Of a DNA stretch of 64,000 nt, positions 9,988 to 14,665 are shown one piece after another. Position 1 is the first letter of the stretch; each line of letters opens with the position of its first letter. This stretch comes from Candidatus Zixiibacteriota bacterium (GTDB taxonomy: Bacteria > Zixibacteria > MSB-5A5 > JAABVY01 > JAHJOQ01), in contig JAHJOQ010000110.1 of assembly GCA_018820315.1 (NCBI GenBank), forward strand, positions 2,874 through 66,873, given 5' to 3'. The notes beneath the pieces were generated by a model, which did not search any database, was not told the origin of the DNA, and saw only the letters and a list, made by a program, of their open reading frames with translations. The translations under genes and the position numbers were made by a program.

Positions 9988-10737
9988 TCAGATGATTTGC
10001 AACAACTCCGACAACTGGCCAATCACCCTGACGCCATCAATCACGATTGAATCCTGTGCCTTTTCTTGATCAGCAGACTTGAAATCGAATCGATCGCCCT
10101 TCGAAGACTCATCTCTGCGTTGAATCAGTATCGGCTTCATACCAGCGGCAACCGCACCATCGACATCCTCCGATGTATCCCCCACATAGATCACTTCGTC
10201 GCTTCGCAATCCAGTCTCTTTCAGAGCAACCGAAAATATCCTTGGATCGGGTTTCTTGAAACCGACATCGGCAGAAATCACTATCGAATCGAAATACTGA
10301 GTCAGACTGAGTTCCGACAATGTCGCGCGAACATTTGGCGGGTGATCAAAGTTGGAGATCAATGCGACCGGCACACGCGATTTCAGATGATTAAGGACTA
10401 TCGGTGTTTCAGGATCGAGCGAAACGTATTTCTGCCATGCCACTGCAACACCGAATGCAGTCTCTGAGAGCTGATCGCGCGATGGTGTGAGCGAGAGTTC
10501 ATCACAATGCGCCATAATGCGACGTTCAAGAACAGTTAGACCGTCGCCATTGTCAGTCGGTTCTGGTTTGCTGAAAAACCCGTCGCAAGACAATGCGAAT
10601 TCATCACGGGACATACCGAGTCCGCAGCCATGCAGGCATCGATGGAATTCCGATAGCCAGTCATTCCACGCTGCGGACATATCGCCATACATGAGCAGGG
10701 TTCCATACAGGTCGAAGAATGCACCCTTGATCTTCAT
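9988..10737 (-). CDS. HAD-superfamily hydrolase
   Basis: FFDLYGTL (motif I), ISNFD, KKPDPRIF, YVGDTSEDVDGA. Confidence 0.88.
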   Translation of the reverse strand: MKIKGAFFDLYGTLLMYGDMSAAWNDWLSEFHRCLHGCGLGMSRDEFALSCDGFFSKPEPTDNGDGLTVLERRIMAHCDELSLTPSRDQLSETAFGVAVAWQKYVSLDPETPIVLNHLKSRVPVALISNFDHPPNVRATLSELSLTQYFDSIVISADVGFKKPDPRIFSVALKETGLRSDEVIYVGDTSEDVDGAVAAGMKPILIQRRDESSKGDRFDFKSADQEKAQDSIVIDGVRVIGQLSELLQII

Positions 10738-10760
10738 ATCTCGATAATAGTGTCTGATGC

Positions 10761-10932
10761 CTGTTGCTGCAACAGAATTCCCGATCGATGCGCTGTCAGG
10801 ATTCCCATCCTGACAGTTCTGCGTAGCATTGGGTCGACGATTCGTGCAGGAAAGATTCCTGCCTGCGGTGTTCTCCTGCGGCTCTACTCAGATGCGCAGA
10901 GATCGCCACGTCGTTCCGCTCCTCGCGATGAC
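10761..10932. repeat. Cluster of palindromes including REP-like elements
   Basis: CTGTTGC-T-GCAACAG (10761-75), CTGTCAGGAT-TCCC-ATCCTGACAG (10793-10816), GCAGGAA-AGA-TTCCTGC (10846-62), and GAGATCGCCACGTCGTTCCGCTCCTCGCGATGAC (10899-10932), which resembles the widespread GAGATTGCCACGTCGC..CTCCTCGCAATGAC extragenic repeat. Confidence 0.6.
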
Positions 10933-12865: not shown

Positions 12866-12991
12866 ATGCCACGTATTGTGCATGTTGAGATTCCGGCTGA
12901 TAATCCGGCACAGTCAAACATGTTTTTGTTGAAAACCGTATCAATGTCTGTTGACTGTGTCTTGAGCAGTCTACAAACGTCTGTGACCTGA
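12866..12991 (+). pseudogene. Truncated VOC/glyoxalase-like gene start
   Basis: ATG 12866 gives MPRIVHVEIPADNP, matching the usual VOC-family N-terminus (MPRVVHFEIPADDP); similarity is lost after ~14 codons and the frame stops at 12991. Confidence 0.55.
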
Positions 12992-13006: not shown

Positions 13007-13873
13007 ATGCTGAAACGTCAGAAAATCATACTGGGAGTTCTGTTACTGGCCCCAAGGTCTCTATCGAAGCTTCAACTGACAAAGCTCACATTTCTAATGA
13101 GACAGGAGTCAGCCCTGGCCGACGATAGCTCCTTTTACGATCACGTGCCTTACCAGCAGGGACCGTTTTCCTTCACACTTTACAGAGACATTGCTGATCT
13201 CAAGCAAATGGGCTATTTGGATGATAACTCGCTTGCTATCAGCGACAACTTAAGGTCAGACGCGCGTTTGCTCTTTGATTCCCTTCCACAAAGTACACGT
13301 ACGGAAGTAGGTCGGACTGTCGAACGTTACGCGAAGCTTGGGGAGAAACCTCTCATCGAGTATGTTTATTCTGAGTACCCTTGGTTTGCCTCGCGAAGCA
13401 GGTTGCGCGGAGCTCCGACCACAGGTAGAATAAAGGGTAAGCTGGCTGTGTATACCGCAGGGTACGAAGGTGAATCTGTCGACCACTTCTTTCAGAAACT
13501 CATGCGTGTGGGAATAGAGGTGCTCATTGATGTGCGACACAATCCGGTTTCGCGCAAGTACGGATTCTCGAAGAAGGACATGCAACGACTTTGTCAGAAA
13601 CTCGACATCCGCTACGAACATATTCCGGAGCTGGGAATTCCGTCTTCGATGCGATCCACGCTGAGCACATACGAGGACTATAAAAGACTTCTCAACAAAT
13701 ACGAACGGTCGATTTTGCCGGAAGCTAGTGAACCGCGCGCCAGAGCCGCTCACATTATGGAGTCTATACCATCTGTGCTTGTCTGCTTTGAGAAGAACGT
13801 CCATTTCTGCCATCGGGGAAGACTGGCTAAAGCAATCGCAAATGATGTCGGCTTGGAGGTGAAACATCTATAG
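13007..13873 (+). CDS. Panacea(DUF4065/SocA)-like wHTH domain fused to DUF488 domain
   Basis: N-terminus: LTKLTFL..FYDHVPYQQGPFSFTLYRDIADL..GY..YVYSEYPWF. C-terminus: DUF488 motifs YTAGYEG, LIDVRHNPVSRKYGFSK, YEHIPELG, CFEKNVHFCHR. Confidence 0.8.
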   Translation: MLKRQKIILGVLLLAPRSLSKLQLTKLTFLMRQESALADDSSFYDHVPYQQGPFSFTLYRDIADLKQMGYLDDNSLAISDNLRSDARLLFDSLPQSTRTEVGRTVERYAKLGEKPLIEYVYSEYPWFASRSRLRGAPTTGRIKGKLAVYTAGYEGESVDHFFQKLMRVGIEVLIDVRHNPVSRKYGFSKKDMQRLCQKLDIRYEHIPELGIPSSMRSTLSTYEDYKRLLNKYERSILPEASEPRARAAHIMESIPSVLVCFEKNVHFCHRGRLAKAIANDVGLEVKHL

Positions 13874-13894
13874 GCCGTAGAAAGGGGAACCAAA

Positions 13895-14665
13895 GTGGGG
13901 GAACGAACCAAGGTTTTAGTCACAGTTAAGACGTATCCGTTACCTTCAGAATCCTACATGGAGCTTGTTTGCACGGGAGGAGTGCTTGAAGACGGGCGCT
14001 TCATTCGTTTGTACCCGATTGACTACCGATATAAACCTTATGCAGAATGGTACAGGAAGTATCAATGGATTGAGATCGAAATTGAGAAGAACGCAAAAGA
14101 CCCTAGACCAGAATCATTCAGACAGACTCACGGTACGCGCATAACAGTTTTGGGCCAGCCTCTCCCAGCCGGGGGCTCATGGGCTGAGCGAAGACGTTAT
14201 GTCTTGGCGAGAGGTGTTTCCACAATGTGTGACCTACAGACAGACTCCCAAAAGGTGAGATCGTTGGGAATAATCAAGCCTAGAAAAGTAAGAGACTTAG
14301 TTGTTGAGAATGTTGCCGGAGAGTGGCCAGAGAAATGGAAGACGCTCTTTCAGCAGCAGGATCTTTTTGGTCCAGATCGCAAACCACTTGAGAAAGTCCC
14401 GTACAAGTTCTCTTATGTATACGACTGTGAGTCTCCCACATGCAGGGGACATAAGATGATGATCGAGGACTGGGAAGTCGGGCAGCTATACCGCGCGATG
14501 AGGGACAAATATGAAAGCGAATCCATTGCCGTCGACAAAGTCAAACAGAAGCTACTCGATCAGATGTGCGCGCCGGATAGAGACACATACTTCTATACAG
14601 GAACCGTTCTCAAACACGACACATGGATTCTGCTAGGTGTGTTTTGGCCAAAGCATATCAAATAG
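13895..14665 (+). CDS. Conserved hypothetical protein co-transcribed with the DUF488 gene (possible divergent dual-OB-type nucleic-acid-binding protein)
   Basis: GTG start with AGGGG RBS; motifs VKTYP.PS..Y.E.VCTGG, FIRLYP, KYQW, DPRPES, CESPTCRGH.M.IEDWE; 256 aa. Confidence 0.7.
   Translation: MGERTKVLVTVKTYPLPSESYMELVCTGGVLEDGRFIRLYPIDYRYKPYAEWYRKYQWIEIEIEKNAKDPRPESFRQTHGTRITVLGQPLPAGGSWAERRRYVLARGVSTMCDLQTDSQKVRSLGIIKPRKVRDLVVENVAGEWPEKWKTLFQQQDLFGPDRKPLEKVPYKFSYVYDCESPTCRGHKMMIEDWEVGQLYRAMRDKYESESIAVDKVKQKLLDQMCAPDRDTYFYTGTVLKHDTWILLGVFWPKHIK

What the first reader, a model, noticed from the sequence alone, without database searches (positions are those of the whole stretch)
13007..14665. 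Candidate uncharacterised two-gene conflict/defence system: Panacea-like-DUF488 fusion + conserved Cys/His partner
Seen: two co-oriented genes 21 nt apart in core synteny, next to a truncation scar, with somewhat lower GC (spot counts 38-48%). Gene 1 joins a Panacea/SocA-like wHTH region to a DUF488 domain with intact DVR..P.SR and CxExxxxxCHR motifs. Gene 2 has KTYP..S..Y.E.VCTGG, IRLYP and a CxxxxCxxH possible Zn site. Known: Panacea (DUF4065) is a promiscuous antitoxin domain. From memory, and needing verification, DUF488 has been linked to Cys-dependent phosphatase-like chemistry and to DarT/dual-OB neighbourhoods. Inference: a toxin-antitoxin-like or anti-phage module acting on nucleic-acid ends or adducts. 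No canonical toxin (ART, nuclease) is visible, so gene 2 may be the effector. This is my best candidate for a new system.
Basis: partly seen in the sequence, partly recalled or inferred. Interest (0 to 1): 0.75.

Follow-up and report, generated by a model that had tools for sequence, protein, structure and literature searches.

The report
Catalogued two-gene candidate phage-defence pair
The two genes are real and tightly linked across many bacteria, phages and plasmids, pairing a likely phosphatase-type enzyme with a likely single-stranded-DNA-binding protein; the pair is already listed as the untested anti-phage candidate PDC-M19, so it is a good target for experiments, not a new discovery.

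Summary
Window 13007-13873 (+) encodes a 288-aa fusion of a divergent Panacea/SocA-like domain to DUF488. After a 21-nt gap, 13895-14665 (+, GTG start) encodes a 256-aa protein. All quoted motifs are present.

It is not a new system. Both proteins match PADLOC's PDC-M19A and PDC-M19B end to end (E 4e-79 and 1e-79). PDC-M19 is one of 145 untested "phage defence candidates" predicted by guilt-by-embedding.

Gene 2 is a dual-OB protein, not an unclassifiable Cys/His protein. Its model resembles RPA70 DBD-A/B and baculovirus LEF-3, and it is homologous to proteins Pfam annotates as DuOB (hhalign E 3e-73). Its CxxxxCxxH knuckle is clade-specific. DxRxES, W..R and DWE are invariant family-wide.

DUF488 lies next to the OB gene in 118 of 127 loci, in four gene arrangements, across more than 10 phyla, on Gordonia phages, 39 viral contigs and plasmids. 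The CxE..CHR catalytic motif is invariant throughout.

Some loci are embedded in Hma or adjoin restriction-modification genes. The window's own neighbours are housekeeping genes.

Most likely mechanism (inferred): the OB protein recognises ssDNA or DNA ends and the DUF488 enzyme processes them, with Panacea as an optional adaptor. I found no experimental data.

The parts
13007..13873 (+). Gene 1 (288 aa): fusion of a Panacea/SocA-like domain to DUF488; equals PADLOC PDC-M19A
   Evidence: ORF. PDC-M19A PDLC04505, E 4e-79, residues 1-287. phrog_14939, E 3e-38. AF2 model pLDDT 92.6, pTM 0.88.
13007..13390 (+). N-terminal winged-helix plus helical-bundle domain (aa 1-128), a divergent Panacea/SocA-like domain (DUF4065)
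   Evidence: 28 of 43 family members hit PF13274, best E 1e-5; the window protein itself is below threshold. Hallmark FYDHVPYQQGPFSFTLY is present. Secondary structure is helix-helix-hairpin-helix followed by four helices. It matches the C-terminal part of a PADLOC type I specificity-subunit model at 2.8e-11.
13445..13870 (+). DUF488 domain (aa 147-288), with a predicted Cys-dependent phosphatase-like Rossmannoid fold
   Evidence: PF04343, E 2.3e-21, 77.1 bits against a 22.2-bit cut-off. 41 of 43 relatives also hit DUF488-N3a. Foldseek matches include DUF442 phosphatase 3gxh, PtpB 1ywf and laforin 4r30.
13529..13555 (+). DVRHNPVSR motif of DUF488 (D175, R177, S182, R183)
   Evidence: D175, R177, S182 and R183 are invariant and P180 nearly invariant in A2. 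D, V and R are invariant across all gene arrangements. Translation verified.
13784..13816 (+). CFEKNVHFCHR: predicted active-site loop (C260, E262, C268, H269, R270) between a strand end and a helix start
   Evidence: Invariant in A2 and in all DUF488 partners from phage, plasmids and chromosomes. Model has strand 256-260 and helix 269-281.
13874..13894 (+). 21-nt intergenic spacer with the ribosome-binding site (GAAAGGGGA, 13880-13888) for gene 2
   Evidence: Sequence. Gaps of similar size occur in most co-oriented loci.
13895..14665 (+). Gene 2 (256 aa, GTG start): dual OB-fold protein of the DuOB family; equals PADLOC PDC-M19B
   Evidence: PDC-M19B PDLC04508, E 1e-79. phrog_25907, E 4e-61. 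AF2 pLDDT 88, pTM 0.86. Foldseek: RPA70 DBD-A/B 1jmc prob 0.98, Teb1, POT1, p204 HIN; baculovirus LEF-3 prob 1.0. BLASTP 37% identity, E 2e-56, to DuOB-annotated P0299. hhalign against 19 DuOB-annotated proteins: prob 100, E 3e-73.
14099..14116 (+). DPRPES motif (D69, R71, E73, S74), invariant across the whole OB family
   Evidence: Invariant in A1, A4 and A5. Kept as DxRKES in the solo Chloroflexi copies.
14426..14452 (+). CESPTCRGH knuckle (C178, C183, H186), a probable structural Zn site in OB2, possibly with C225 (14567-14569)
   Evidence: Invariant in the window's clade. Absent as a group in the Fischerella, Rhizobium and Pseudomonas relatives, and the second Cys is missing in the Chloroflexi copies. 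Zn binding is inferred.
14468..14476 (+). DWE motif (D192, W193, E194), invariant across the whole OB family

Best explanation
What it is (shown). The pair is a member of the catalogued but untested candidate anti-phage system PADLOC PDC-M19. Gene 1 fuses a Panacea/SocA-like domain to DUF488, and gene 2 is a DuOB-family dual-OB protein. It behaves as a horizontally mobile two-gene cassette.

How it most likely works (inferred).
1. The dual-OB protein is the nucleic-acid-recognition subunit. It would bind single-stranded DNA or DNA ends that appear when a phage or other mobile element replicates, recombines or enters the cell.
2. It would direct or activate its DUF488 partner.
3. DUF488 is a Cys-dependent enzyme of the rhodanese-phosphatase superfamily with an invariant CxE(x5)CHR loop. 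It would process a phosphate-linked group on the bound nucleic acid, such as a terminal phosphate or a sugar-phosphate or ADP-ribose-type adduct. This would block replication, ligation or packaging of the invader.
4. The N-terminal Panacea-like domain is an optional adaptor. It would tether or hold the partner in check in the window's clade. In other clades it is replaced by an XRE-type HTH or is absent.

The shown steps are the folds, homologies, motif conservation, gene linkage, mobility and occasional embedding in defence loci. The inferred steps are ssDNA binding, the DUF488 chemistry and substrate, physical interaction of the two proteins, and anti-phage activity.
For: Identity:
- Full-length PADLOC matches to PDC-M19A and PDC-M19B.
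- PDC systems were defined by embedding in BREX, DISARM and type I RM loci.

Gene 2 as an ssDNA-type binder:
- Confident AF2 model.
- Best PDB matches are tandem-OB ssDNA binders: RPA70 A/B, Teb1, POT1 and HIN.
- Best viral matches are LEF-3, which from memory is the baculovirus SSB.
- Homology to Pfam-DuOB proteins.

DUF488 as the enzyme:
- Pfam hit.
- Fold matches to Cys-phosphatases.
- Catalytic-type residues are invariant in every arrangement.

Functional linkage:
- DUF488 is adjacent to the OB gene in 118 of 127 loci, in four different orders or orientations.
- The loci span more than 10 phyla, Gordonia phages, 39 IMG/VR contigs and conjugative plasmids.

Defence context:
- The pair sits between HmaB and HmaC in L032 and L071.
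- A type III Mod+Res pair is adjacent in L020.
- A PDC-S37/Hhe-like giant protein is adjacent in L036.
- HsdR directly follows the OB gene in L079.
- HsdR- or Mod-like genes lie near the pair in L029, L037, L041, L044 and L047.
- In Gordonia prophage-type genomes the pair sits in the lysogeny module, between the integrase and the gene annotated as immunity repressor.
- DUF488 also recurs in another PADLOC candidate, PDC-M45.

Mobility:
- The closest relatives lie among different housekeeping genes in each genome.
Against: - No experiment on PDC-M19 or on any DUF488/DuOB pair was found in the held literature.
- The window's own neighbours are housekeeping genes, as are most neighbours in the 21-locus sample.
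- Defence adjacency is seen in roughly 10 of 80 genome loci, with no matched control, so enrichment is not statistically established.
- Foldseek E-values for both models against PDB are only about 1e-3 to 1e-2.
- The OB protein carries invariant acidic residues (D69, E73, D192, E194). These are unusual for a pure ssDNA binder and could mean that it is itself catalytic.
- Six Chloroflexi loci carry the OB gene without an adjacent DUF488 (one of them, L063, is interrupted by a stop codon), so the OB protein may act alone or with other partners.
- No DUF488 substrate is known.
Confidence: 0.5

Rival explanations
1. Toxin-antitoxin or abortive-infection module of the PanAT type. The OB protein is the toxin, for example by coating ssDNA at replication forks or acting as an OB-fold nuclease. 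The Panacea-DUF488 protein is its antitoxin, neutralising it by binding and perhaps also enzymatically, as DarG does for DarT.
For: - The N-terminal domain is Panacea-like, and Panacea is a promiscuous antitoxin domain (PMC8832971).
- Gene order is 'antitoxin first' with a 21-nt gap, and this order is conserved in many species. That matches the operational criteria of Kurata et al..
- The top fold match of gene 1 is a chain of the M. tuberculosis DarT-DarG complex, 7yk3 B/D, prob 1.0.
- The OB protein has invariant acidic residues.
Against: - 34 of the 118 paired loci have no detectable Panacea domain, and 16 pairs are convergent and so not co-transcribed.
- Five intact OB genes stand alone among housekeeping genes in Chloroflexi, with all family-wide invariant motifs kept.
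- Gene 2 has no recognisable toxin domain.
- The most strictly conserved catalytic signature is in the supposed antitoxin.
- The window protein itself does not reach any Panacea threshold.
Confidence: 0.2
2. Counter-defence or DNA-care module carried by mobile elements. The OB protein binds the element's own ssDNA during conjugative entry or phage replication, and DUF488 removes a host-inflicted adduct or end block, such as ADP-ribosyl- or phosphate-linked lesions.
For: - The pair is present on conjugative plasmids, near ssb and relaxase in Arthrobacter FB24 plasmid 3 and near toprim, helicase and DUF1419 genes in Rhizobium pRL8.
- It is present in phages and viral contigs.
- From memory, Burroughs & Aravind 2023 placed DUF488 in a clade predicted to process sugar-phosphate or ADP-ribose derivatives and DNA ends.
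- Gene 1 shows fold similarity to a chain of the DarTG complex.
Against: - Most copies are chromosomal and outside recognisable mobile elements.
- In Gordonia phages the pair is in the lysogeny module rather than among early lytic genes.
- Embedding inside Hma and next to RM genes is typical of defence genes, not anti-defence genes.
- No DarT-like gene was seen next to it, and PADLOC gave no DarT or DarG hit for either protein.
Confidence: 0.12
3. An ordinary nucleic-acid or nucleotide housekeeping function, such as repair of spontaneous DNA-end damage, unrelated to conflicts. Its patchy distribution would reflect dispensability.
For: The window and most sampled loci have housekeeping neighbours. 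There are no integration signatures around the window's pair: no flanking repeats and no tRNA. GC is close to the genome average.
Against: - The pair occurs in only about 302 of 185,579 species genomes, scattered over many phyla.
- It is present on phages, viral contigs and plasmids.
- A whole Hma-plus-pair cassette is shared at about 80% identity between MAGs assigned to different phyla.
- The chromosomal site differs in each close relative.
Confidence: 0.08

Closest known systems
PADLOC PDC-M19 (phage defence candidate, multi-gene no. 19; Payne, Hughes, Fineran & Jackson, bioRxiv 10.1101/2024.01.29.577857)
   Same: Both proteins match the A and B models over their full lengths (E 4e-79 and 1e-79). 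The genes are adjacent and co-oriented. Embedding in defence loci is reproduced here (Hma in L032 and L071, HsdR in L079).
   Different: Nothing structural differs. The window's copy is a 'solo' instance among housekeeping genes. PDC-M19 itself has no published phenotype or mechanism that I could find.
DUF488 with DuOB (Pfam PF04343/PF22751 and PF22557). From memory these come from Burroughs & Aravind 2023, NAR Genom Bioinform lqad029; that paper is not held.
   Same: Same two domains. The DUF488 active-site motifs are intact. Gene 2 is homologous end to end to DuOB-annotated proteins and has two OB folds.
   Different: The window's OB subfamily falls below the Pfam DuOB threshold: 0 of 45 close relatives hit it. 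Gene 1 adds a Panacea-like domain, and the window protein hits DUF488-N3a only at E 0.23. I cannot quote what that paper says about this particular pairing.
PanAT toxin-antitoxin systems (Panacea/DUF4065 antitoxins; Kurata et al. 2022, PMC8832971)
   Same: Panacea-like domain at the N-terminus of the first gene. A two-gene locus with a short gap, conserved across species.
   Different: Here Panacea is fused to an enzyme domain, is optional across the family, and the partner is an OB-fold protein with no toxin signature. No toxicity data exist.
DarTG (ssDNA ADP-ribosylating toxin with a de-ADP-ribosylating, toxin-binding antitoxin)
   Same: It is an ssDNA-centred conflict system. Its antitoxin combines an enzymatic domain with a partner-binding domain. 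The best PDB fold match of gene 1 is a chain of 7yk3.
   Different: There is no ART (DarT) domain and no Macro or NADAR domain. PADLOC gives no DarT or DarG hit for either protein. I could not determine which 7yk3 chain or domain matches which part of gene 1.
Multi-OB ssDNA-binding proteins (RPA70 DBD-A/B, POT1, Teb1, baculovirus LEF-3)
   Same: Tandem OB architecture. From memory, the Zn knuckle inside one OB fold recalls the zinc ribbon in RPA70 DBD-C.
   Different: No sequence similarity, and TM-scores are only 0.3-0.4. Gene 2 has its own invariant polar motifs (DxRxES, DWE) and an obligate DUF488 neighbour.

Membership tests
PADLOC PDC-M19 | Protein matching a PDC-M19A model | tested here: met
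   PDLC04505, E 4.1e-79, residues 1-287 on profile 1-293/294.
PADLOC PDC-M19 | Protein matching a PDC-M19B model | tested here: met
   PDLC04508, E 9.9e-80, residues 4-254 on profile 3-262/269.
PADLOC PDC-M19 | The two genes are adjacent | tested here: met
   21-nt gap, same strand.
PADLOC PDC-M19 | Anti-phage activity (the reason for the family's name) | not testable with these tools
   No published test found. Only other PDCs (S05, S70, M05) have been tested.
Pfam DUF488 (PF04343) | HMM score above the gathering cut-off | tested here: met
   77.1 bits against 22.2, residues 158-276.
Pfam DUF488 (PF04343) | Conserved DVR..P.SR and CxE(x5)CHR residues | tested here: met
   Present and invariant among relatives.
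Pfam DUF488 (PF04343) | Rossmannoid Cys-phosphatase-like fold (rhodanese-phosphatase superfamily) | tested here: inconclusive
   AF2 pLDDT 92.6. Foldseek hits to DUF442 phosphatase, PtpB and laforin have prob 0.57-0.89 but E 0.05-0.25.
Pfam DUF488-N3a (PF22751, 'active DUF488-N3 subclade') | HMM score above the gathering cut-off (27 bits) | tested here: not met
   Window protein scores 12.2 bits, E 0.23. 41 of 43 relatives hit at E<=1 (best 6e-6), and the phage and plasmid partners pass with 29.5 and 35.1 bits.
Pfam DuOB (PF22557) | HMM score above the gathering cut-off (27 bits) | tested here: not met
   No hit at E<=1 for the window protein or for any of its 44 close relatives in A1.
Pfam DuOB (PF22557) | Homology to bona fide DuOB proteins | tested here: met
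   BLASTP 37% identity over 257 aa, E 2e-56, to P0299, which scores 30.4 bits on DuOB. hhalign A1 against 19 DuOB-annotated proteins: prob 100, E 3e-73.
Pfam DuOB (PF22557) | Two OB folds | tested here: met
   Two beta-barrel strand sets in the AF2 model. Tandem-OB matches: 1jmc prob 0.98, Teb1 AB, p204 HINab, LEF-3.
Pfam DuOB (PF22557) | Nucleic-acid (ssDNA) binding | not testable with these tools
   Inferred from fold only.
PanAT (Panacea antitoxin with toxin) | Panacea (PF13274) domain above the Pfam cut-off | tested here: not met
   No hit at E<=1 for the window protein. 28 of 43 relatives hit, best E 1e-5. The hallmark motif is visible.
PanAT (Panacea antitoxin with toxin) | Conserved two-gene locus with a gap of 100 nt or less in two or more species | tested here: met
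   84 loci have the Panacea-DUF488 gene directly upstream of the OB gene. The criterion is quoted from PMC8832971.
PanAT (Panacea antitoxin with toxin) | Partner is toxic and is neutralised by the Panacea protein | not testable with these tools
   Indirect evidence against: solo intact OB genes and Panacea-less pairs.
DarTG | DarT ADP-ribosyltransferase toxin | tested here: not met
   No DarT model hit in PADLOC and no ART domain in Pfam for either protein.
DarTG | Macro or NADAR antitoxin domain | tested here: not met
   No such Pfam or PADLOC hit. The only link is a fold match of gene 1 to 7yk3 B/D.

The most novel reading that the evidence does not exclude
The DuOB-DUF488 pair is an immune system with an effector chemistry not yet seen in defence. 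A dual-OB sensor captures phage ssDNA or DNA ends and hands them to a Cys-phosphatase-fold enzyme. That enzyme covalently processes or blocks the termini, or removes or installs a sugar-phosphate adduct. The Panacea domain would act as an ssDNA-mimicking auto-inhibitor that is displaced by real ssDNA. This last idea draws on the title of Deep et al. 2023 about the DarG C-terminal domain, and on the fold match to 7yk3.
Probability: 0.25. Interest if true: 0.8.

Novelty: new member of a known kind. Interest (0 to 1): 0.42.

Why it matters
If PDC-M19 is a working defence system, three things follow:
- It would give DUF488 its first biological role. DUF488 is a very widespread domain of unknown function.
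- It would add a Cys-phosphatase-type effector to the known repertoire of immune chemistries.
- It would add a compact two-protein ssDNA-sensing module.

This analysis supplies a ready experimental plan.
- Corrected start codons for both genes.
- The invariant residues to mutate: C260, E262, C268, H269 and R270 in DUF488; D69, R71, E73, S74, W96, R99, D192, W193 and E194 in the OB protein.
- The finding that the Zn knuckle and the Panacea domain are dispensable at family level.
- Natural minimal versions to test, such as Gordonia phage Nymphadora gp42/gp43 and the pairs on the Arthrobacter and Rhizobium plasmids.

As a discovery claim it matters little. The system is already in PADLOC, and its two core domains (DUF488 and DuOB) are already Pfam families.

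Tried and rejected
- Sequence search of both proteins, and of the gene 1 profile, against PDB chains gave nothing significant.
- NCBIfam gave no hit for either protein.
- Pfam DuOB on the window protein and its 44 close relatives gave no hit. Homology had to be shown through more distant relatives.
- Burroughs & Aravind 2023 could not be read. 'PDC-M19' and 'DuOB' do not occur in any held paper. 'DUF488' combined with phage or defence terms found nothing relevant.
- Empty-site and synteny test: a metagenome scan with the flanking ABC-2 permease found one relative at 56% identity with different downstream genes, so the test was uninformative.
- Integration signatures were absent: no meaningful flanking repeats and no tRNA in the window. 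Promoter and terminator scans were at chance level.
- The upstream 40-codon ORF as a VOC-gene remnant was not confirmed.
- The Gordonia phage gp44 'immunity repressor' as a detached Panacea domain was rejected (hhalign prob 0.1).
- The Sulfolobus pSOG2 gene downstream of the OB gene as a DUF488 found no support.
- I could not establish which chain or domain of 7yk3 matches which part of gene 1. The tool gives no aligned ranges, the paper is not held, and two other papers gave only the citation.
- Defence enrichment: the pooled scans of 126 neighbours give counts but no control, so I make no statistical claim.
- I could not obtain model coordinates, so spatial clustering of the invariant residues was not checked.
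- The representative-library search was not used.
Full report
**1. What is in the sequence**

Two co-oriented ORFs lie at 13007..13873 (288 aa, ATG) and 13895..14665 (256 aa, GTG). They are separated by 21 nt containing GAAAGGGGA, 7 nt upstream of the GTG.

- Gene 1: DVRHNPVSR and CFEKNVHFCHR.
- Gene 2: KTYPLPSESYMELVCTGG, IRLYP and CESPTCRGH.

Homologues align from residue 1 of both ORFs. The long reading frames are therefore right, and the shorter metagenome gene calls (258 and 235 aa) are start-codon miscalls.

The GC dip is minor. The pair is 0.485 against a window mean of 0.503, the 13th percentile. There are no flanking repeats and no tRNA.

A 40-codon ORF upstream (12866-12988, MPRIVHVEIPADNP...) may be the 'truncation scar'. 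I could not confirm it as a gene remnant.

The window comes from an 89-kb metagenome contig. The pair's neighbours there are housekeeping genes: alpha-2-macroglobulin, PBP, HAD hydrolase, an ABC transporter, PRPP synthetase, methyltransferases and FKBP.

**2. Identity of the two proteins**

Gene 1
- It carries DUF488 at residues 158-276 (E 2e-21).
- Its N-terminal ~130 residues fold as a winged helix plus helical bundle (AF2 pLDDT 92.6).
- The window protein does not itself hit SocA_Panacea. However, 28 of 43 relatives do (best 1e-5), and 41 of 43 hit DUF488-N3a.
- The Panacea hallmark (FYD..PY..GPFSF..Y) is visible.

Gene 2
- It has no Pfam, NCBIfam or PDB sequence match.
- Its AF2 model (pLDDT 88, pTM 0.86) is a tandem OB fold.
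- The best PDB neighbours are RPA70 DBD-A/B (prob 0.98), Teb1 AB, POT1 and p204 HINab.
- The best viral neighbours are baculovirus LEF-3 proteins (prob 1.0).
- More distant relatives from a Gordonia phage and a Sulfolobus plasmid touch Pfam DuOB ('Dual OB-containing domain') at E 2e-3.
- A profile built from seven distant relatives retrieves many proteins with DuOB precomputed.
- The window protein is 37% identical (E 2e-56) to one of them, which scores above the DuOB cut-off.
- hhalign between the window's clade and 19 DuOB-annotated proteins gives prob 100, E 3e-73 over 257 columns.

Gene 2 is therefore a DuOB-family protein from a subfamily that the Pfam model misses.

**3. The pair is already catalogued**

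PADLOC-DB v2 matches gene 1 to PDC-M19A (E 4e-79) and gene 2 to PDC-M19B (E 1e-79), both full length.

PDCs are the 145 'phage defence candidates' of Payne et al. 2024, predicted from embedding in BREX, DISARM and type I RM loci. No held paper mentions PDC-M19. Only other PDCs have been tested. Both proteins also belong to PHROG families of unknown function.

[quoted passage not shown] That paper is not held. I cite only the existence of the Pfam families DuOB and DUF488-N3a as checked evidence.

**4. Linkage, distribution and mobility**

A relative of gene 2 is found in 302 of 185,579 species genomes. These are scattered over Planctomycetota, Chloroflexota, Acidobacteriota, Cyanobacteriota, Actinomycetota, Ignavibacteriales, Armatimonadota, Verrucomicrobiota, Thermodesulfovibrionia, deltaproteobacterial lineages and others.

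It is also found in seven Gordonia phage records, 39 IMG/VR contigs and 23 plasmids, including Sulfolobus conjugative plasmids.

Over 127 loci, a DUF488 gene is adjacent in 118:

| Arrangement of DUF488 relative to the OB gene | Loci |
|---|---|
| Same strand, upstream, with a Panacea-like domain | 84 |
| Same strand, upstream, no detectable Panacea domain | 15 |
| Convergent, downstream | 16 |
| Same strand, downstream | 3 |
| No adjacent DUF488 | 7 |
| Contig edge | 2 |

One plasmid version replaces Panacea with an XRE-type HTH. Linkage that survives four rearrangements is strong evidence that the two proteins work together.

The DUF488 residues G-Y, DVR, L-G and CxE(x5)CHR are invariant in all arrangements.

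In the OB protein the family-wide invariants are R38, P41, D69, R71, E73, S74, W96, R99, P129, Y174, D192, W193, E194 and G236. The Cys/His knuckle is lost as a group in several clades. It is therefore probably a structural Zn site, not the functional core.

Six Chloroflexi loci carry the OB gene without an adjacent DUF488. Five are intact and keep the family-wide invariant motifs; the sixth, L063, has an in-frame stop.

The closest relatives (59-62% identity) sit as isolated two-gene cassettes between different housekeeping genes in every genome.

**5. Defence context**

- In L032 (Ignavibacteriales) and L071 (Planctomycetaceae) the pair lies between HmaB and HmaC of an Hma system. The two cassettes are about 80% identical across phyla.
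- In L020 a type III Mod+Res pair follows directly. In L036 a PDC-S37/Hhe-like giant protein precedes the pair.
- In L079 HsdR starts at the OB gene's stop codon.
- HsdR- or Mod-like genes lie near the pair in L029, L037, L041, L044 and L047.
- In Gordonia phage Nymphadora the OB gene (gp43) and a convergent DUF488 (gp42, E 1e-29) sit between the integrase and the gene annotated as immunity repressor. That is a usual place for prophage-borne defence genes.

Against this, most of the 126 sampled neighbours are ordinary metabolic genes, and I had no matched control. Defence association is qualitative and concerns a minority of loci. That agrees with Payne et al.'s remark that embedding-derived candidates are often 'solo'.

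**6. Mechanism**

Shown: a dual-OB protein of ssDNA-binder fold, an obligate partner with a Cys-phosphatase-like fold and an invariant active-site-like loop, and an optional N-terminal adaptor.

Inferred: the OB protein recognises ssDNA or DNA ends of an invader. It recruits or activates DUF488, which processes a phosphate-linked group on the nucleic acid. Panacea tethers or restrains the partner.

I put this at about 0.5. The rivals are:
- a PanAT-like toxin-antitoxin with the OB protein as toxin (0.2), weakened by Panacea-less and convergent pairs and by solo OB genes;
- a counter-defence or DNA-care module of mobile elements (0.12);
- a non-conflict housekeeping role (0.08).

The invariant acidic residues of the OB protein remain unexplained and could mean that it is catalytic.

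The best PDB fold match of gene 1 is a chain of the M. tuberculosis DarT-DarG complex (7yk3 B/D, prob 1.0, TM 0.50 on the target). I could not determine which domains correspond, so this is a lead only.

**7. Verdict**

It is wrong on novelty and probably wrong on which gene is the effector.

The window's pair is a new member of a known but experimentally uncharacterised candidate system (PDC-M19, that is, DUF488 with DuOB). Interest is moderate. It is a well-defined target for a first functional study, not a new kind of system.

Noticed in passing
window 12866-12988 (+): A 40-codon ORF (MPRIVHVEIPADNPAQSNMF...) lies in the 246-nt spacer upstream of gene 1. From memory its first ~15 residues resemble the N-terminus of VOC/glyoxalase-family proteins, so it may be the remnant of a gene truncated when the pair arrived. 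Pfam and PDB sequence searches gave nothing.
   Followed up: partly
L032 1341-13764 and L071 2175-13725: An entire HmaA-HmaB-[Panacea-DUF488 + OB]-HmaC cassette is shared between an Ignavibacteriales MAG and a Planctomycetaceae MAG. Protein identities are HmaA 82%, HmaB 67% and HmaC 79%. This points to recent inter-phylum transfer, or to mis-binning.
   Followed up: partly
L082 6825-7274 (Gordonia phage Nymphadora gp42, NC_031061.1): RefSeq annotates gp42 as 'HipA toxin'. It is in fact a stand-alone DUF488 protein (PF04343, E 1.2e-29; DUF488-N3a 29.5 bits), so this looks like a mis-annotation.
   Followed up: yes
window 13007-13096 and 13895-13957: The public gene calls for this contig start both genes too late, giving 258 instead of 288 aa and 235 instead of 256 aa. 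This removes conserved N-terminal residues, including the invariant KTYP motif of gene 2, which starts at a GTG.
   Followed up: yes
window 13076-13408 (gene 1 aa 24-134): The Panacea-like domain matches the C-terminal end (positions 433-548 of 554) of a PADLOC type I RM specificity-subunit model at E 2.8e-11. This suggests that some HsdS proteins carry a fused Panacea-like domain.
   Followed up: no
L063 about 10000-10770: The OB gene of Chloroflexi bacterium CFX3 has an in-frame stop (..TPAS*EWKPEW..). It is either a pseudogene or a sequencing error.
   Followed up: no
L087 8792-9481 (Streptomyces canus plasmid): The DUF488 partner here carries an N-terminal XRE-type helix-turn-helix in place of the Panacea domain, so the N-terminal module is interchangeable.
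   Followed up: partly
gene 1 aa 147-288 (window 13445-13870): The DUF488 domain also matches components of a second PADLOC candidate system, PDC-M45C (1.5e-15) and PDC-M45B (2.7e-10). DUF488 therefore recurs in more than one embedded candidate.
   Followed up: no
L084 6010-7370 (Sulfolobus islandicus pSOG2): The archaeal plasmid copy of the OB gene sits next to the integrase. It is followed by a 168-aa protein that overlaps it and shows no detectable DUF488 signature, so it may be a different partner.
   Followed up: partly
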